In this document: piece after piece, positions 13,347 through 19,169 of the stretch | Position numbering within the stretch: the first letter of the stretch is position 1 | Layout of the letters: the number at the start of each line of letters is the position of its first letter | Assembly: GCA_024235395.1 (NCBI GenBank) | Contig: JACKMK010000001.1 | Location: 58,445-122,444 of the forward strand | Source: Chromatiaceae bacterium | Lineage (GTDB): Bacteria > Pseudomonadota > Gammaproteobacteria > Chromatiales > Chromatiaceae | Reading direction: 5' to 3' | DNA: 64,000 nucleotides | Program-made: the position numbers and the translations under genes | The notes under the pieces: model-generated | Database searches by the model: none | Told to the model about the DNA's origin: nothing | What the model saw: only the letters and a program-made list of their open reading frames with translations

Positions 13347-14201
13347 ATGAGTGACCGACTGGACTATCCGGCATTCTACGAACTGGTGACCGAGTTGGTG
13401 TCCAGTTCGGCCACCAGCACCCTCTTCGGGCGCACCGATACCAATCACTCTGTGATCATCGGCCTGGACGGCGGCACGATCGTCTGCGTCCGATGTGGCC
13501 CGAAACGCGGCCTGGCCGCGATCCATGCCTTGCGTTCGATGCAGTGGGGAACCTTCAGGGTCGACGATGCGTTGGTGGAGCTCAGTTCGCCGACTTTGCC
13601 GCCGACTGCGGAACTGGTCGCGGCGCTGCACCCCGGCGCTACCGTTTTCGAAGACACGCCCGGCGACGACAGCGCGGATCCCGCACAACAAAGCGATAAC
13701 CACAGCGCGGAGGCGAAGCTGCTGTGTGACCTGCTCTCGCGCTACGTCGGCCCGGTCGCCCCGGTACTGTGTTCAGAGGAGATCAAGGCCGTCGGCGGGC
13801 TCGACCATCTGGGCAAACTCGATCTGGTTCTGGGCAAGCTGGCCCGCGAGATCGATGACGCCGGCGAGGCCAGTGAGTTTGTCTTGCTGGCTCAGCGTGA
13901 GCTCGCACACCGCTTCGCCCCCCCGCCGTCGACCGGGCCCGCGGACACCGTCACACCACCGTCGAAGGCGTTGCTCGATCCGACCCAGGCGGCCAAGGAT
14001 CTCTGCGGACTGGTCAGCGATTATCTCGGTCCTGTCGCCGAGATCCTCTGCCAGGAGAAGATTGCCGAAGTCGGTGGACTGAACGGCCGACACGAGTTGG
14101 ACTCGGTCATCCGGCACCTGGCTCGCGAGATCGACGAACAGCGCGAAGCCGAGCAATTCCTCAGCCGCGCGCGTGCGCATTTCGCTGCCGCCATGACCTG
14201 A
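13347..14201 (+). CDS. Hypothetical protein: PATAN/DUF4388-like N-terminus plus two helical repeats
   Basis: N-terminal ...[18 protein letters not shown]...; repeats [13 protein letters not shown]...LAREID and [13 protein letters not shown]...LAREID. Confidence 0.6.
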
Positions 14202-14263
14202 CCTCGTGCCTCGGCCGACACGCAGCGGGCCGCCAGCCGCTGCGACTCAGCCGCTGTGGGCCT

Positions 14264-15169
14264 TCACTCGCCGCCCTTGCGCATCCTTTTCATCAGTTGC
14301 GCGAAACTCCTTCGCAGCAGTTCCACTGATCGCGCCAGGTCGCCGATCTCATCGTTGCGCTCGATGTTCATAGACCGGTCGAGTTCACCCTTGGCAACAG
14401 CATGTGCGGTCTCGGTGATCTTCAGCAGTGGAGATATCAGGTAGTGTCGCACCAGCAGATTGATCGTCATGAATACGATTGCAAACATCAATGTCAACAA
14501 TCCCGTCGCAACCAGGCTGCGCTTCAACGCCAAGGCGTCGACGTTGGCGATCGGTACGCCGACGAGTTCGACACCGACCACGTCACCGATCCGGTAGTTG
14601 TAACCAGCGCCTCGGCCATAGTCTGCGGTGATCTGGATCGGTACCTGATCGGGGTCACCGTGGCAACGCAGACACCCCTTCGCACTGACGATCGGCGCGC
14701 TGCGCACCAGCATCTGTTGTCCGCCCAGCAACCCCTCGACCCGCAGTTCATCGAGTTGCTTGTCCGCGCGGAAACGTGACAACAGCTCGGATTCCAGCGC
14801 CTCGGGACGGTTGTCGGGATTCAAGGGGTTGTCCGACACGTTGCGTATGGAATAGCTTCCCTGCATGCCCTTGAAGTTCTCGGCGACGCGCGATACCGCG
14901 ACGATGCCGGAGAAGCCGGCGGTGTGGAACAACCGTTGTTTCATGAAGTAGGGTCGCAGATCCTTCGCCACGTAACCTTTGATCGACTTGACCATATCGA
15001 CCAGGAGCCCGAGTTGGGTGCTGGACTGCGCATACACCTCGTGCCGTGTGTAGTAGTAGATCGTCGGAGCGCTGATCAGGATGCTCAGCAGATAGATTCC
15101 AAGGATCGAAAGATTGAATCGCCGCGTGATGCTGCCCCGCGCGGCTGCGGGTGTGGTTTGTGTCGTCAT
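14264..15169 (-). CDS. DUF3365 (Tll0287-like) heme c sensor domain plus HAMP, no output domain
   Basis: SDNPLNPDNRP, CLRCH heme c motif, two TM helices, HAMP (RNDEIGDLARS). Confidence 0.85.
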   Translation of the reverse strand: MTTQTTPAAARGSITRRFNLSILGIYLLSILISAPTIYYYTRHEVYAQSSTQLGLLVDMVKSIKGYVAKDLRPYFMKQRLFHTAGFSGIVAVSRVAENFKGMQGSYSIRNVSDNPLNPDNRPEALESELLSRFRADKQLDELRVEGLLGGQQMLVRSAPIVSAKGCLRCHGDPDQVPIQITADYGRGAGYNYRIGDVVGVELVGVPIANVDALALKRSLVATGLLTLMFAIVFMTINLLVRHYLISPLLKITETAHAVAKGELDRSMNIERNDEIGDLARSVELLRRSFAQLMKRMRKGGE

Positions 15170-15304
15170 GGCTGGCCCTGCCTTTTCCCTTTAGACATCA
15201 GGCGCCCGCATCTATGCCCGGACTCACTGTCATGGCGCCTCATTATTGTTAGCGCCCCGCTGAGCCCTTTTCTTTAGTACCTAAAAGGACCAGGTATCCG
15301 GGAA

Positions 15305-15640
15305 CAAACGGACACGCGGTCAATACAGGGCCGATCGATTGGCCATGCCGAGGCTCAGGCCGCTTGTATCGAAGGCGCGTGGCTTGACTTGCGCAGCTGT
15401 GCTTTTCAACATGCCAACGCGCGGCCGGCACTTCGAGCGGTTCCATGGCCTGGCGATGCCGGGGTTCTGGAACGCTCCGGGGTTACCCCGGGGATGCCTG
15501 GTTCAGTCTGACAATGCATTGCCGGTACACCACTGCGCTGCACGCAGATGCTGTACCGGCGGGACGAGAGTGGTCGAAGGCCGGTCGCGCGCCCGACACC
15601 ATGCAACGCGGGCATCCGGTCGTCTCGCGTGTGGGGTTTG
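15305..15640 (+). ncRNA. Putative structured ncRNA upstream of the RT (msr/msd-like candidate)
   Basis: Nested inverted repeats read by eye: long hairpin 15341-15450, hairpins 15477-15491 and 15521-15560, closing stem 15492-98/15611-17, terminal repeat 15312-18/15626-32. Confidence 0.55.
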
Positions 15641-15663
15641 ACGTGACTGCTCATCAGATCAAA

Positions 15664-16965
15664 ATGCGGCGACTGATGCTCTCCATCCAGTTCGGCAGAT
15701 GGGATCGGGAGTCGCTCGGCGACCGCTTGCGCAGGGCGCTGGATGGCGGGCCACCCGACCCCGACCGGCTTGCCGCGAGGCTGCTGTTCCACTTCCCCCC
15801 GGGGCATCCACCGTCTCGATCGCAGCTGGCCGGACTGCTGGCCGCCGACCGCGAGTTGGCAGCTGCCTCGCAGTCAGGTGGCAAGGGGTTCGAGGCACGG
15901 ATCGTACTCGACACCTCGGTGATGCAGGCGCCGACCGGGCACTTCTCGACCCTGCCGCTGCCGACCTTGGATCATGCGAGAGACCTGGGCCTTTGGTTGG
16001 GTCTGAATCAGCGCGAGCTGGCATGGTTCGCCGACTGCGAATCGCGACAGACGTCTGTACGCAATCCCAAGCTACATCATTACCGCTACCGCTGGCTCGC
16101 CCGACGTAGTGCGCCGCCACGTCTGCTGGAGATACCCAAGGCACGACTGAAGCTCATGCAGCGACAGGTCCTGCACCACCTGCTCGACTGCGTTCCGCCG
16201 CACCCCGCCGCTCATGGTTTTCGCCGTCATCGCTCCTGCCTCAGCTTCGCGACGCCACATCTGCAAAAGCCTGCGGTGCTGCACATGGATCTGGAAGATT
16301 TCTTTCCGTCTATCCCGGCGCCGCGCGTCGGCGCACTGTTTCGCCGCCTCGGTTATCCCCCGGGGGTCGCGCGTGTCCTGCAGGGACTGTGCACCCACGC
16401 GGTCGCACCTGCCCTGGTCGGCGCCGAGTTTGATGCGTTGCCCTGGGAGACGCGACGGCGGCTACAGGCACCGCACCTGGCGCAAGGTGCCCCCAGCTCG
16501 CCGGCGATCGCGAACCTGTGCGCCTGGCGGCTCGACTGCCGTCTGCAGGGTCTTGCCGACCGGTTCGAGCTCGATTACACCCGTTATGCGGACGACCTGG
16601 CGTTTTCGGGACCCGCGAGCCTGCTGCGCCGCGGCCCTTTCGTTCAGGCGCTGATCGGGGCAATCGCCGCCGAGGAGGGGTTCCGCATCAACCATCGCAA
16701 GACGCGTCTGAACACACAGGCGCAATCACAACGGCTCGCCGGGGTCGTGGTCAACCAACGACCCAACCTGCAGCGGCGTGACTACGACCGCCTGAAAGCC
16801 ACGCTGCACAACTGTGCCCGCTTCGGGCCCGAGGGACAGAACCACGAAGGCAGGCAGGATTTCAGGGCGCATCTCGCCGGACGGATCGCCCATGTGGCCT
16901 GGTTGAATCCGGACCGGGGAGCCCGCCTGAAGGCCTTGTGGGCACGGATCTCCTGGCCCGACTGA
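15664..16965 (+). CDS. Retron-like RNA-directed DNA polymerase (reverse transcriptase)
   Basis: AAHGF, DLEDFFPSI, QGAPSSP, YADD, GFRINHRKTR, QRLAGVVVN; organization resembles myxobacterial Mx162-type retron RTs. Start is ATG 15664 or GTG 15643; the track ORF from 15445 runs through the putative RNA. Confidence 0.9.
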   Translation: MRRLMLSIQFGRWDRESLGDRLRRALDGGPPDPDRLAARLLFHFPPGHPPSRSQLAGLLAADRELAAASQSGGKGFEARIVLDTSVMQAPTGHFSTLPLPTLDHARDLGLWLGLNQRELAWFADCESRQTSVRNPKLHHYRYRWLARRSAPPRLLEIPKARLKLMQRQVLHHLLDCVPPHPAAHGFRRHRSCLSFATPHLQKPAVLHMDLEDFFPSIPAPRVGALFRRLGYPPGVARVLQGLCTHAVAPALVGAEFDALPWETRRRLQAPHLAQGAPSSPAIANLCAWRLDCRLQGLADRFELDYTRYADDLAFSGPASLLRRGPFVQALIGAIAAEEGFRINHRKTRLNTQAQSQRLAGVVVNQRPNLQRRDYDRLKATLHNCARFGPEGQNHEGRQDFRAHLAGRIAHVAWLNPDRGARLKALWARISWPD

Positions 16966-16970
16966 ACAAG

Positions 16971-16989
16971 CGGCGGCGCGTCGCCGCCG
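16971..16989. terminator. Hairpin between the convergent RT and iorB-like genes
   Basis: CGGCGGCG-cgt-CGCCGCCG, 8-bp stem, no U-tract. Confidence 0.4.
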
Positions 16990-16994
16990 GTGCC

Positions 16995-19169
16995 TCAGGC
17001 CGCGCGCAGGTCAGAAGGCTGTAGCGGCACCCTGCGGATGCGCCGACCCGTTGCCGCGAAAATCGCGTTGAGCACCGCCGGCGCCGCGACCGCAATGGTC
17101 GGTTCACCGACGCCACCCCAGAAACCGCCGGACGGCATCACGATCGATTCCACCTGCGGCATTTCGGCGATCTGCATCGAGCGATAGGTGTCGAAGTTCG
17201 ACTGCTGCACGCGGCCGTCGCGTATCGACACACCGCCATACAGCAGCGCGCTCAGGCCGAACATGAATGAACCCTCGATCTGCGCCTCGATCTGTTGCGG
17301 GTTGACCGCGTGACCCGGATCGGTCGCGGCGACAATGCGATGGATCTTCAAGCGGCCGTCGTCCACCGACACCTCGGCGCAGGCCGCAACATGGCTGCCG
17401 AATGCCTTGCACACCGCGAGGCCGCGATGCACACCTGCCGGCACGGGCTCGCCCCAGCCGATACGCTCGGCAACCGCATTCAATACCGCGAGACTGTGGG
17501 GATGCTGCCCCATGAGCTTGCGCCGGAATGCCAGCGGATCGACGCCCGCGGCATGCGCCAGCTCTTCGATGAAGCACTCCAGGTAGATCGCATTCTGGTT
17601 GATGTTGACGCCCCGCCAGAAGCCGGGTGGCACAGGTGGGTTGCGCATCGCATGGTCGACCAGCAGGTTGGGGACCGTGTAGCTGATCGCGTGATCACCG
17701 TCCGGCAACAGGCCCTGGAAGGTGATCATGTCCGCGCCGCCTTTCAGCGCGTTGGGCCTTACCCCGGCCAGGATGGACTGTCCCGAGATGCGCACCCGCA
17801 GCCCGATAAGGTCGCCGTTCGCATCCAGCGCGCCACGCAGGCGCGCCTGGGTGATCGGATGATAGGCACCATGCCGCATGTCCTCCTCGCGCGTCCACAG
17901 CAGCTTGACCGGGGTGCCCGGCAACTGCTTGGCGATCTTGACCGCCTGGCTGACGTAGTCGCTGAAGCCGCGCCTTCCGAAGCCACCGCCGAGATGCAGC
18001 TTGTAGACCTCGCATTGGGTTGCCGGCAATCCCGCCGCCACGGCGGTCGCATCGAGCGCGGCCTCGCCATTCTGCGTCGGACACCAAACCTCGCAACGCT
18101 CTGCGGTCCAACGGGCGGTCGCGGTCATCGGCTCCATCGTGGCATGGTGCTGGAACGGATAGCTGTAGACGGCCTCCACGGTCTGCGCGGCGCCGGCGAA
18201 TGCGGCATCGACATCACCCGCCTGGTTGCCGATGAACGCCTCGGCGGCGTCCAGGCCTTCGACGAGCATGCGCGCGATCGATTCATCATCGACCGTCGCA
18301 TTGGGTCCCTCGACCCAGGTGATCGGCAACGCGTCGAGCGCGGTCTTCGCCTGCCACCAGGTATCGGCCACGACCGCGACCGCATCGTCGTCGACGCGGA
18401 CGACGGCGCGTACGCCGGGCATCTTGCGCACGGCCGCTTCGTCGAATCCGCCGAGCCGGCCGCCGAACACCGGGCACGCCTTGATCGTCGCGTTGAGCAT
18501 CCCCGGCAGCTGCAGATCCGCAGCGAACACCTGACGGCCGGTGAGCTTGTCGGCGGTATCGAGACGCTTGAGCGGCTTGCCGGCGATCGTCCAGTCCTTC
18601 GGGTCCTTGAGTTCGACACTGACCGGTGGCACCAGCTTGGCCGCCGCGGCGGCGACCGCGCCATAACGGGTCGTGCGACCGGTCGGGGCATGGGTAATGA
18701 TCCCGGCGACCACGCTGCACTCCTCGACCGGCACGTCCCAGGCCTCGGCGGCCGCCTCGATGAGCAAGGTACGAGCCAGCGCGCCACCCTCGCGAACATA
18801 CTGGTGACTGCCCCGAATCCCGCGGCTGCCGCCGGTCGCAAAGCTGCCCCAGACGCGGTTGCGCGCCAGGCTCTGGCCCGGCGTCGGGTACTCGGTACTC
18901 ACCTTGGACCAGTCGCACTCGAGTTCTTCGGCGACCAGTTGGGCGAGGCCGGTCAATGTACCCTGGCCCATCTCCGAACGGGCAATGCGGATGATCACCC
19001 GGTCATCCGGCTCGATCACGACCCAGGCATTCACCTCGCGGGTTGCTCCCTCGGCGCGCGCATCGGCGTCGACCAACGGCAGGAACAGCCCGATCGACAG
19101 GCCGGCGCCGGCGCTCGCCGTGCCGATCAGGAAATCGCGGCGCGAAATTTTCACCGGCCCCGTCTTCAT
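16995..19169 (-). CDS. Xanthine dehydrogenase-family molybdopterin subunit (isoquinoline 1-oxidoreductase beta-like)
   Basis: Tat-like SRRDFL, RSEMGQG, GGGFGRR, GGVGEP. The start overlaps the stop of the upstream 2Fe-2S gene. Confidence 0.92.
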   Translation of the reverse strand: MKTGPVKISRRDFLIGTASAGAGLSIGLFLPLVDADARAEGATREVNAWVVIEPDDRVIIRIARSEMGQGTLTGLAQLVAEELECDWSKVSTEYPTPGQSLARNRVWGSFATGGSRGIRGSHQYVREGGALARTLLIEAAAEAWDVPVEECSVVAGIITHAPTGRTTRYGAVAAAAAKLVPPVSVELKDPKDWTIAGKPLKRLDTADKLTGRQVFAADLQLPGMLNATIKACPVFGGRLGGFDEAAVRKMPGVRAVVRVDDDAVAVVADTWWQAKTALDALPITWVEGPNATVDDESIARMLVEGLDAAEAFIGNQAGDVDAAFAGAAQTVEAVYSYPFQHHATMEPMTATARWTAERCEVWCPTQNGEAALDATAVAAGLPATQCEVYKLHLGGGFGRRGFSDYVSQAVKIAKQLPGTPVKLLWTREEDMRHGAYHPITQARLRGALDANGDLIGLRVRISGQSILAGVRPNALKGGADMITFQGLLPDGDHAISYTVPNLLVDHAMRNPPVPPGFWRGVNINQNAIYLECFIEELAHAAGVDPLAFRRKLMGQHPHSLAVLNAVAERIGWGEPVPAGVHRGLAVCKAFGSHVAACAEVSVDDGRLKIHRIVAATDPGHAVNPQQIEAQIEGSFMFGLSALLYGGVSIRDGRVQQSNFDTYRSMQIAEMPQVESIVMPSGGFWGGVGEPTIAVAAPAVLNAIFAATGRRIRRVPLQPSDLRAA

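What the first reader, a model, noticed from the sequence alone, without database searches (positions are those of the whole stretch)
15305..15640. About 340 nt of densely structured putative ncRNA directly upstream of the RT
Seen in sequence: (1) a ~110-nt nested hairpin with GGCCATG 15341-47/CATGGCC 15444-50, TCGAAG 15369-74/CTTCGA 15431-36, GCGCGT 15375-80/ACGCGC 15417-22, GGC/GCC and TTGA/TCAA; (2) CCGGGG-tta-CCCCGG at 15477-91; (3) GCCGGTACA...TGTACCGGC at 15521-60 with an inner CTGCG/CGCAG stem; (4) GGATGCC 15492-98/GGCATCC 15611-17 closing a multibranch domain; (5) ACACGCG 15312-18/CGCGTGT 15626-32 plus CAAAC/GTTTG, closing the whole unit like retron a1/a2 arms. Inference: this is the RT's template/primer RNA. 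The longest hairpin lies 5' of the smaller stems, whereas classical retrons place short msr stems first and the long msd hairpin second. That may indicate a non-canonical architecture or a different cDNA product.
Basis: partly seen in the sequence, partly recalled or inferred. Interest (0 to 1): 0.85.

Follow-up and report, generated by a model that had tools for sequence, protein, structure and literature searches.

The report
Stand-alone retron RNA gene upstream of RT
A real, conserved 174-base structured RNA gene with its own promoter sits just before the reverse transcriptase and has the ordinary layout of a retron template RNA.

Summary
There is a genuine structured ncRNA, but it is shorter than flagged: 15418-15591 (+), not 15305-15640. 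It folds far better than shuffles (z = -5.45). A covariance model built on it matches directly upstream of the RT, on the same strand, in 84 of 95 homologous loci from several phyla. 93.9% of cells are paired and 36 of 40 pairs show double-sided changes.

In whole genomes the RNA occurs only where this RT lineage occurs. A promoter (-35 15384-89, -10 15407-12) places the transcript start at the first helix.

The anatomy is canonical retron msr-msd:
- an 18-bp a2/a1 closing helix;
- a near-invariant G (15437) facing a near-invariant G (15573);
- two msr hairpins, one variable and one the invariant CUCCGGGG-NNA-CCCCGGGG;
- a 40-nt msd hairpin.

His 110-nt hairpin (z = -0.87, spans the promoter) and both "closing" helices are chance and are not conserved. 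The "long hairpin first, non-canonical" inference therefore fails.

The RT starts at GTG 15643 (440 aa). It matches the PADLOC models RT_other and RT_outgroup, which I take to be Mestre clade 11 (stand-alone msr-msd-RT cassettes), and it has no conserved neighbouring gene. This is a new member of a known, computationally predicted but barely tested kind. cDNA synthesis is inferred, not shown.

The parts
15384..15412 (+). Promoter of the ncRNA-RT transcript: -35 TTGACT (15384-89), 17-nt spacer, -10 CAACAT (15407-12). The predicted start is at about 15418 +/- 2.
   Evidence: TTGAC-N17/18-cAACAT is conserved in the 8 closest homologues. Across 75 distinct loci, a TANNNT hexamer ends 5-11 nt upstream of the first P1 base in 59, against a background of about 1 per position. 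A TTGACA-like hexamer peaks at -34 to -36. The simple scanner missed this site because its -10 matches only 3 of 6. The transcription start is inferred, not measured.
15418..15591 (+). The whole ncRNA core (retron msr-msd), 174 nt
   Evidence: z = -5.45 against shuffles. CM R1 scores 161 bits here and matches upstream of the RT in 84 of 95 loci. There is no Rfam match at E <= 10.
15418..15436 (+). P1 5' strand (a2-like), CGCGCGGCCGGC-A-CUUCGA. It pairs with 15574-15591, and A15430 is bulged.
   Evidence: All 16 modelled P1 pairs show double-sided changes, with 95.5% and 98.9% of cells paired in its two helix segments. This window itself carries a compensatory U-A where relatives have C-G.
15437..15437 (+). 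Putative priming (branching) guanosine, unpaired, directly 3' of a2
   Evidence: G in 76 of 79 distinct homologues. Its role is inferred from retron biology, where a priming G lies next to a1/a2 (PMC10849725, PMC7736814).
15440..15472 (+). P2: first msr hairpin (GUUCCA...UGGAAC with an inner CCUGGC/GCCGGG stem), variable in sequence
   Evidence: A 32-37-nt hairpin forms in this segment in most homologues even though the sequence is not conserved. Median z is -2.2, and 85% have z < -1. The closing pair covaries (columns 36/111).
15475..15493 (+). P3: second msr hairpin, CUCCGGGG-UUA-CCCCGGGG. It is nearly invariant and is the likely RT recognition hairpin.
   Evidence: The GGGG/CCCC core is invariant in 79 of 79. 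The outer pairs covary (C-G 42, U-A 34). The recognition role is inferred.
15494..15520 (+). J3-4 linker, 23-27 nt in all homologues and the most A/U-rich part. It contains the invariant C15517 and is the likely cDNA termination zone.
   Evidence: Length range and column counts are. Retron cDNA termination typically precedes an AT-rich stretch (PMC10849725). Inferred.
15521..15560 (+). P4/P5: the msd hairpin, GCCGGUAC..CUGCG-CUGCA-CGCAG..GUACCGGC (38-44 nt in all homologues). It is the predicted cDNA template.
   Evidence: 15 pairs, all with double-sided changes. 83.9% of cells are paired in the outer helix and 98.7% in the inner one.
15561..15573 (+). J4-1 linker (12-15 nt) with the invariant G15568, ending in G15573, which faces G15437. 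Predicted start of the template.
   Evidence: G15573 is G in 78 of 79 and G15568 in 79 of 79.
15574..15591 (+). P1 3' strand (a1-like), UCGAAG-GCCGGUCGCGCG
15592..15642 (+). Unconserved spacer carrying the RT ribosome-binding site (GGGG 15633-36)
   Evidence: Variable in length and sequence in alignment A1. No terminator-like site lies here. No conserved pairing to the ncRNA.
15643..16965 (+). Retron-type reverse transcriptase, 440 aa, starting at GTG. It has a YADD active site and an N-terminal helical extension of about 100 aa.
   Evidence: PADLOC RT_other 1.6e-143 and RT_outgroup 6.3e-137. Pfam RVT_1. Best solved relative is the Ec86 RT. Homologue lengths are about 440 aa. The start codon column is conserved. 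AlphaFold mean pLDDT is 88.

Best explanation
Positions 15418-15591 are the msr-msd gene of a stand-alone (effector-less) retron. Its reverse transcriptase is the next gene, 15643-16965.

Proposed mechanism:
1. A sigma-70-type promoter (15384-15412) starts one transcript at the first base of the a2 strand, and the transcript runs on through the RT gene.
2. The RNA folds so that a2 (15418-36) pairs with a1 (15574-91). This brings the unpaired G15437 opposite G15573.
3. The RT most likely docks on the near-invariant P3 hairpin. It uses the 2'-OH of G15437 as primer and copies the RNA from about 15573 backwards through the 40-nt P4/P5 hairpin.
4. Synthesis stops in the A/U-rich linker at about 15500-15520. 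The product would be a branched, hairpin-forming msDNA of roughly 55-75 nt.

Shown here: the RNA is real, structured, conserved, promoter-equipped and tied exclusively to this RT lineage, and it has every sequence and structure hallmark of a retron ncRNA.

Inferred: transcription, priming at G15437, and the extent of the cDNA.

Unknown: the biological role without an adjacent effector. The likeliest roles are phage sensing with a trans-encoded partner, or sensing through the RT's own N-terminal domain.
For: - Fold: z = -5.45 for 15418-15591, while the flanks are at chance.
- Conservation: the upstream regions of RTs only 52-59% identical in protein align in blocks that coincide with the helices.
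- Model matches: CM R1 matches the + strand immediately upstream of the RT in 84 of 95 loci from Gamma- and Betaproteobacteria, Planctomycetota, Actinomycetota and soil metagenomes.
- Covariation: 93.9% of cells paired against 76.6% in shuffles and 35-53% with slid partners. 36 of 40 pairs have double-sided changes, and 0 of 500 shuffles reach any measure.
- Co-occurrence: among 61 related genomes the RNA is found in exactly the 7 that carry the RT, once each and adjacent. Among 300 other genomes of the class it is found in one, G199, which was not in the training set, directly upstream of a 44%-identical RT. Six genomes with other retron RTs lack it.
- Retron hallmarks: an 18-bp a1/a2 helix; G after a2 in 76 of 79 facing G in 78 of 79; msr hairpins followed by an msd hairpin of constant length.
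- Promoter position is conserved.
- RT family: retron-family by HMM, by solved-structure sequence search and by fold (Ec86 RT, E 2.8e-20).
- Literature: Mestre et al. 2020 describe stand-alone (msr-msd)-RT cassettes in clade 11 with predicted ncRNA structures (PMC7736814). The covariance models are called OutgroupA/B (PMC13712802). A census reports intermediate RT-DNA production for clades other than 2, 3, 4, 9 and 10 (PMC10849725).
Against: - There is no transcript or cDNA evidence for this locus.
- The covariation alignment was fitted to the model, which inflates the pair counts somewhat. The slid and shuffled controls and the independent MAFFT alignment argue the signal is real.
- The retron RT signature motifs are only partly kept. 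Region X reads FATPH against NATPH in Ec86, and VTG reads LAG.
- The base before the priming G is not the common UUA.
- No effector gene is adjacent or conserved, so the usual retron logic of an msDNA-held toxin cannot be applied directly.
- I could not run the published OutgroupA/B models. Identity with them, and the equation of PADLOC RT_outgroup with clade 11, rest on matching names.
Confidence: 0.82

Rival explanations
1. One reading: a unit of about 340 nt (15305-15640) closed by ACACGCG/CGCGTGT and CAAAC/GTTTG, with a 110-nt hairpin first and the small stems second. That would be a non-canonical retron-like architecture giving a different cDNA product.
For: All the listed repeats exist. 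The MFE fold of the whole 346-nt stretch does use the outer arms, with z = -2.3 to -2.9.
Against: - The outer arms and the 5' half of the hairpin lie upstream of the conserved promoter and are not conserved in any homologue.
- The hairpin alone gives z = -0.87, and the number of 7-nt repeats is at chance.
- The modest z of the whole stretch is carried entirely by the 174-nt core, whose own z is -5.45.
- There is no conserved pairing of the post-a1 spacer.
Confidence: 0.02
2. The conserved RNA is bound by the RT but is not a classical msDNA template. It might be copied only on induction (as reported for type VI retrons), copied by another mode such as repetitive or rolling synthesis (as in DRT2 and DRT9), or act mainly as a scaffold or regulator of the RT.
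For: - No effector gene is present and the signature motifs are altered.
- The RNA sequence is unusually well conserved across phyla.
- Type VI retrons make little msDNA without phage (abstract of 10.1101/2025.10.22.683967, seen).
Against: - The G-opposite-G at the inner end of a long a1/a2 helix, and an msd hairpin of fixed length, are exactly the classical priming geometry.
- The RT is closest to msDNA-making retron RTs and only remotely like Drt2 (NF041746, E 3e-5, 23 bits against a cut-off of 390).
- The census reports RT-DNA from clades outside 3 and 4.
Confidence: 0.1
3. The structure is a cis-regulatory 5' leader, such as an attenuator, a protein-binding autoregulatory site or a riboswitch. 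It would control RT expression and would not be reverse transcribed.
For: It lies in the 5' UTR of the RT mRNA. No terminator separates it from the RT.
Against: - The conserved part ends about 50 nt before the start codon.
- The spacer holding the ribosome-binding site is unconserved and shows no conserved pairing with the RNA.
- There is no Rfam riboswitch or leader match.
- The retron hallmarks would be unexplained.
Confidence: 0.04
4. The region 15445-15642 is coding, as an N-terminal extension of the RT. Public gene calls give a 506-aa protein.
For: The frame is open from ATG 15445, and P0001 (506 aa) is what databases hold.
Against: - Homologues are about 440 aa.
- The frame is closed 27 nt upstream of the start in the lower-GC relative L001.
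- HMM matches begin at residue 73 of the long ORF.
- A GTG/TTG start column is conserved.
- Substitutions upstream are compensatory in helices, not codon-like.
Confidence: 0.01

Closest known systems
Stand-alone (msr-msd)-RT retron cassettes of RT clade 11 (Mestre et al. 2020, PMC7736814). Their ncRNA covariance models are called OutgroupA/B, and the lineage is called clade11-A/-B in PMC13712802. The PADLOC models are RT_outgroup and RT_other.
   Same: - The RT matches both PADLOC models end to end.
- There is no conserved accessory gene.
- The ncRNA lies immediately upstream with a1/a2, opposing Gs, msr hairpins and an msd hairpin.
- The lineage occurs in Pseudomonadota, Planctomycetota and Actinomycetota, as described for clade 11.
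   Different: I found no difference. The published covariance models could not be run here, so I cannot say whether this RNA is their family A, family B or a further variant. Mestre et al. described clade 11 as essentially actinobacterial, whereas this copy is from a gammaproteobacterial genus where it is patchy (5 of 23 other genomes, 52-59% identity). The family is not in Rfam.
Retron-Eco1 (Ec86), the best-studied retron
   Same: - Closest solved RT by sequence (E 4.5e-34) and by fold (E 2.8e-20).
- Same ncRNA logic: a2, priming G, msr hairpins, msd hairpin, a1, then the RT.
- Shared xATPH, QGAPSSP and YADD motifs.
   Different: - Ec86 has an effector (a nucleoside deoxyribosyltransferase-like protein). 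None is present here.
- This RT has an extra N-terminal helical domain of about 100 aa.
- VTG is replaced by LAG.
- The base context before the priming G differs.
- There is no sequence similarity between the ncRNAs.
Myxobacterial type XIII retrons (Mx162, Mx65; RT clade 10)
   Same: Next-best PADLOC RT model (RT_XIII, 3.2e-84). From my own knowledge, these are also long RTs with N-terminal extensions.
   Different: Type XIII retrons have associated ARM/HEAT-repeat and SWIM-type accessory genes and their own ncRNA structure (PMC7736814). No such genes are present here.
Retron-Eco5 (Ec107) branch of clade 2, the other effector-less retrons
   Same: [quoted passage not shown]
   Different: A distant RT clade (PADLOC RT_Ec107-like, 1.2e-50, against 1e-137 or better for the two best models), with a different ncRNA.

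Membership tests
Retron (msr-msd ncRNA + retron RT) | The RT belongs to the retron/retron-like RT lineage | tested here: met
   All the top PADLOC matches are retron RT models. NCBIfam matches are retron St85, Ec67 and TIR-type models, all below their family-specific cut-offs. All the best PDB sequence and fold matches are retron RTs.
Retron (msr-msd ncRNA + retron RT) | [quoted passage not shown] | tested here: inconclusive
   Aligned to Ec86, NATPH reads FATPH (A, T, P and H kept, N lost) and VTG reads LAG (only G kept). The family consensus is SFVxPH and RLAGxVVN. Mestre et al. say H is the most conserved residue.
Retron (msr-msd ncRNA + retron RT) | Inverted repeats a1/a2 (>8 bp) that close the ncRNA | tested here: met
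   18 bp, 15418-36 with 15574-91. All 16 modelled pairs covary.
Retron (msr-msd ncRNA + retron RT) | A priming guanosine at the inner end of a2, facing a G on the a1 side | tested here: met
   G15437 is G in 76 of 79 and G15573 is G in 78 of 79. Both are unpaired in the MFE fold. Priming itself was not tested.
Retron (msr-msd ncRNA + retron RT) | One to three short msr hairpins followed by an msd stem-loop | tested here: met
   P2 (variable) and P3 (invariant) come first, then the P4/P5 hairpin of 38-44 nt.
Retron (msr-msd ncRNA + retron RT) | The ncRNA is contiguous with the RT gene and co-oriented with it | tested here: met
   51 nt upstream here. The same arrangement holds in 84 loci and in G199.
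Retron (msr-msd ncRNA + retron RT) | Production of branched multicopy single-stranded DNA (msDNA) | not testable with these tools
Tripartite retron defence system (types I-XIII) | An accessory or effector gene, or an effector domain fused to the RT | tested here: not met
   The flanking genes are a Tll0287-HAMP sensor and a molybdopterin oxidoreductase, both on the opposite strand. No neighbouring ORF family is shared by more than 6 of 95 loci. The only extra domain is a helical N-terminus of about 100 aa with no PDB match of its own.
Mestre clade 11 stand-alone retrons | The RT matches the clade's HMM | tested here: met
   PADLOC RT_outgroup: 455 bits over 12-407 of 407. RT_other: 477 bits. 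The equation of 'outgroup' with clade 11 rests on the naming in PMC13712802.
Mestre clade 11 stand-alone retrons | The ncRNA matches the published OutgroupA or OutgroupB covariance model | not testable with these tools
   The models are not in Rfam and no supplementary files are held.
Any Rfam family (including RT-associated motifs) | A covariance-model match | tested here: not met
   0 matches at E <= 10 over 14000-18000, both strands.
DRT2 / UG-Abi RT-ncRNA systems | The RT belongs to the UG/Abi lineage | tested here: not met
   Drt2 NF041746 scores 23 bits against a cut-off of 390. DRT2 and DRT9 structures rank far below retron RTs.

The most novel reading that the evidence does not exclude
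The RT-ncRNA pair is a complete functional unit that needs no separate toxin. The clade-specific N-terminal helical domain of the RT, or the msDNA-RT complex itself, would be the output module. Alternatively it partners with an unlinked host factor. The unusually sequence-conserved P3 hairpin and the fixed-length msd across phyla would then reflect a cellular role other than the known retron toxin-antitoxin logic.
Probability: 0.15. Interest if true: 0.7.

Novelty: new member of a known kind. Interest (0 to 1): 0.3.

Why it matters
- Annotation. The locus can now be annotated correctly: a 174-nt retron RNA gene with its promoter, and a 440-aa RT. Public gene calls extend the RT to 506 aa straight through the RNA gene.
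- A usable model. The covariance model and structure cover an ncRNA family that is absent from Rfam. It recognises its RT lineage across at least four phyla.
- An open question. Effector-less retrons remain unexplained: what does a retron do without a toxin? The conserved priming geometry, the invariant P3 hairpin and the presence of the cassette in culturable Burkholderia cenocepacia make that question testable.
- Biotechnology. A compact, self-contained RT plus ncRNA pair with a short, well-defined msd hairpin is also a candidate scaffold for making DNA in cells.
- Limits. As a discovery it is incremental. The lineage and the existence of its ncRNA were predicted in 2020.

Tried and rejected
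- Rfam (E <= 10) over 4 kb: nothing.
- ATG 15445 as the RT start: rejected.
- A conserved neighbouring effector: all-against-all clustering of ORFs in 95 loci gave only RT-overlapping frames.
- An empty-site comparison to define insertion borders: the one syntenic relative (G007) loses synteny exactly at the cassette side on a short contig, so this was uninformative.
- Compositional anomaly or tRNA attachment site: none.
- Extra tertiary pairs or a pseudoknot, by scanning all column pairs: the scan recovered the P2 closing pair (columns 36/111). The only other notable signal was columns 131/236, which looks like a subfamily correlation rather than a real pair.
- Phage association: only distant retron RTs (about 28-34% identity) occur in phage records.
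- The Minerva preprint on ncRNA mining could not be opened.
- A literature search for effector-less retrons by phrase returned noise.
- Supplementary files of Mestre et al., which would hold the covariance models, are not held.

Full report
**Observation**

I read 14700-17400. Their number is not remarkable, however. The 336-nt stretch has 7 perfect 7-nt inverted repeats against 6.05 +/- 3.3 in dinucleotide-preserving shuffles, and 204 of 500 shuffles reach that number.

Folding the whole stretch gives only z = -2.3 to -2.9. The centroid structure keeps only one domain, about 15418-15591. Folding the pieces separately is decisive:
- the 248 nt upstream of 15418: z = 0.01;
- 15418-15591: MFE -103.3 against -76.6 +/- 4.9 kcal/mol, z = -5.45.

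**The gene downstream**

The open frame runs from ATG 15445 (506 aa), but several results place the true start at GTG 15643 (440 aa):
- Pfam and PADLOC matches begin at residue 73 or later of that frame.
- More than 100 homologues are about 440 aa long.
- In the lower-GC relative L001 the frame is closed 27 nt upstream of the start.
- A GTG/TTG start column is invariant in the DNA alignment.

The protein is a retron-type RT:
- PADLOC RT_other 1.6e-143, RT_outgroup 6.3e-137, then RT_XIII 3.2e-84.
- All the best solved relatives are retron RTs, led by Ec86.
- An AlphaFold model (pLDDT 88) matches the Ec86 RT best (E 2.8e-20). It adds an N-terminal five-helix extension of about 100 aa.
- Against Ec86, YADD and QGAPSSP are intact, NATPH reads FATPH and VTG reads LAG.

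The flanking genes are a Tll0287-HAMP sensor and a molybdopterin-binding oxidoreductase subunit. Both lie on the opposite strand.

**Comparative evidence for the RNA**

I aligned the upstream regions of eight RT homologues that are only 52-59% identical in protein. They align in sharp blocks:
- a TTGAC-N17/18-cAACAT promoter;
- GCGGCCGGC-n-CUCCGAG;
- an invariant CUCCGGGG-NNA-CCCCGGGG;
- GCCGGUAC..CUGCG..CGCAG..GUACCGGC;
- GUCGGAG-GCCGGUCGC.

RNAalifold pairs the first and last blocks as a long closing helix, with compensatory changes. This window's own CUUCGA/UCGAAG, where relatives have CUCCGA/UCGGAG, is one of them.

A covariance model built from these eight sequences (R1) was searched against 95 sources: the window and 94 RT-containing loci from isolate genomes, MAGs and metagenomes. 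It matches the + strand immediately upstream of the RT in 84 of them, with E between 2.5e-28 and 2.2e-5. The misses fall into three groups:
- loci without upstream DNA;
- three distant RTs at 33-36% identity;
- L025, which has none, even with the filters off.

Two further loci from plasmid records were searched separately. Burkholderia cenocepacia (L098) has a full match, and a Tsukamurella plasmid (L099) has only a P3-P4 match.

On the 79 distinct sequences, 93.9% of cells form standard pairs. That compares with 76.6% in shuffles and 35-53% when partners are slid. 36 of 40 pairs have double-sided changes, and no shuffle out of 500 reaches any of the five measures. The alignment is model-fitted, which favours the structure. 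The independent MAFFT alignment shows the same compensatory changes.

**Linkage to the RT**

In 61 related genomes, the RT is present in 7 at E < 1e-130, counting the window's own genome. That is 5 of the 23 other genomes of the genus plus one genome of another genus in the family. R1 matches exactly those 7, once each and next to the RT.

In 300 further genomes of the class, R1 matches one, G199, which was not used in training. There it lies about 20 nt upstream of a 44%-identical RT. Six genomes with other retron RTs (34-38% identity) have no match. The RNA is therefore specific to this RT lineage.

**Anatomy in this window**

- Promoter: -35 TTGACT at 15384-89 and -10 CAACAT at 15407-12. 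Across 75 distinct loci, a TANNNT hexamer ends 5-11 nt before the first paired base in 59, against a background of about one per position. A TTGACA-like hexamer peaks at -34 to -36. The transcript therefore begins at the helix. This is inferred, not measured.
- P1: 15418-29 and 15431-36 pair with 15574-79 and 15580-91. That is 18 bp, with A15430 bulged.
- Opposing Gs: G15437 (G in 76 of 79) is unpaired and faces G15573 (G in 78 of 79).
- P2: 15440-72, a hairpin of variable sequence. It folds in about 85% of homologues and its closing pair covaries.
- P3: 15475-93, nearly invariant.
- J3-4: 15494-520, 23-27 nt everywhere, A/U-rich, with the invariant C15517.
- P4/P5: 15521-60, 38-44 nt everywhere.
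- J4-1: 15561-73, 12-15 nt, with the invariant G15568.
- Spacer: the 51 nt up to the GTG are unconserved, contain no terminator-like site and show no conserved pairing with the RNA.

**What it is**

This is the canonical retron ncRNA plan: a2, priming G, short msr hairpins, msd hairpin, a1, then the RT. The criteria are those of Mestre et al. (PMC7736814) and of the retron census: an inverted repeat longer than 8 bp, a priming G near the 5' end, several hairpins next to a retron RT, and a first templated base that is usually G (PMC10849725).

His hairpin 1 borrows the P1 5' strand and pairs it with unconserved sequence across the promoter. An 8-mer, TCGAAGGC, occurs both at 15369-76 and in the a1 strand, which makes that false fold possible. 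His closing helices 4 and 5 are chance. The inference of a non-canonical order is therefore wrong, while the general inference of an RT template/primer RNA stands.

**Mechanism proposed**

The promoter makes one msr-msd-RT transcript. The a1/a2 helix places G15437 opposite G15573. The RT, probably recognising P3, primes from the 2'-OH of G15437 and copies from about 15573 through P4/P5. It stops in the A/U-rich J3-4, since termination typically precedes AT-rich sequence (PMC10849725). The product would be a branched msDNA of about 55-75 nt with a 15-bp hairpin. All of these steps are inferred from family knowledge, and none is shown for this locus.

**Comparison with what is known**

Mestre et al. 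2020 describe stand-alone (msr-msd)-RT cassettes in a branch of clade 2 and in clade 11, with two or three consensus ncRNA structures for clade 11. A 2026 survey calls those models OutgroupA/B. It finds clade11-A mostly in Pseudomonadota and clade11-B in Actinomycetota and Planctomycetota, with no accessory module (PMC13712802).

The PADLOC names RT_outgroup and RT_other, the lack of any conserved neighbour and the phyletic spread of my loci all fit that lineage. I could not run the published models. Whether this RNA is their family A, family B or a further variant therefore remains open. The census reports intermediate RT-DNA yields for clades other than 2, 3, 4, 9 and 10, which suggests that clade 11 members can make cDNA in E. 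coli.

**Context**

Within the genus the cassette is patchy: 5 of 23 other genomes, at 52-59% identity. The flanking genes within 1.5 kb are unrelated between copies. This points to horizontal movement or rapid turnover. Even so, GC content is host-like and no tRNA or repeat border is evident. An attempt to find an empty site failed for lack of synteny. Earlier notes of this scan on other genomes reached the same family assignment. I treat them as leads, not as evidence.

**Verdict**

The finding is a real and well-supported structured RNA, with its boundaries corrected to 15418-15591 plus the promoter at 15384-15412. It is a new member of a known, computationally predicted and experimentally little-studied kind. 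Interest is moderate to low. The open question is what effector-less retrons do.

Noticed in passing
window 15445-15642: Public protein collections hold the RT as a 506-aa product starting at ATG 15445 (P0001: 8 member sequences, 22 contigs). That start runs through P2-P4 of the ncRNA gene. The true start is GTG 15643. High-GC members of the family show similar spurious upstream open frames of 150-170 codons (L002, L003).
   Followed up: yes
window 15369-15376 and 15574-15581: The 8-mer TCGAAGGC occurs upstream of the promoter and again in the a1 strand. It is absent in homologues, so it is either chance or a local remnant.
   Followed up: partly
L025 (metagenome, RT 53% identical); L099 2326-2410 (Tsukamurella tyrosinosolvens plasmid 5): L025 shows no match to the RNA model even with the filters off. 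The Tsukamurella locus matches only P3-P4 (E 0.004), directly upstream of its annotated RT. These may represent the second clade-11 ncRNA family, or a degraded RNA.
   Followed up: partly
L098 1976-2149 (Burkholderia cenocepacia CMCC(B)23006, 1.1-Mb replicon NZ_CP091014.1): A full-length match to the ncRNA model (58.6 bits, E 2e-10) lies directly upstream of an unannotated RT homologue (52% identity). B. pyrrocinia, B. arboris and Burkholderia sp. FXe9 have the RT too. These are culturable hosts for experiments.
   Followed up: partly
window 15643-15950 (RT residues 1-100): The RT has an N-terminal extension of about 100 aa, predicted with good confidence (pLDDT about 78-91) as five helices. 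A disordered linker (residues 97-100, pLDDT < 50) joins it to the RT core. It has no counterpart in solved retron RTs and is less conserved in distant family members.
   Followed up: partly
window 14264-15169 (- strand) and G007:C126: The upstream Tll0287-HAMP sensor gene has an orthologue in only 1 of the 23 other genomes of the genus (75% identity). Synteny with that genome ends exactly at the RT-cassette side. This neighbourhood is therefore variable within the genus.
   Followed up: partly
alignment A5, columns 131 and 236 (window about 15490 and 15565): A P3 base and a J4-1 base co-vary (G/C 34, A/U 25). The P3 base is already paired within P3. This is probably a subfamily signature, but a base triple or tertiary contact is not excluded.
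   Followed up: no
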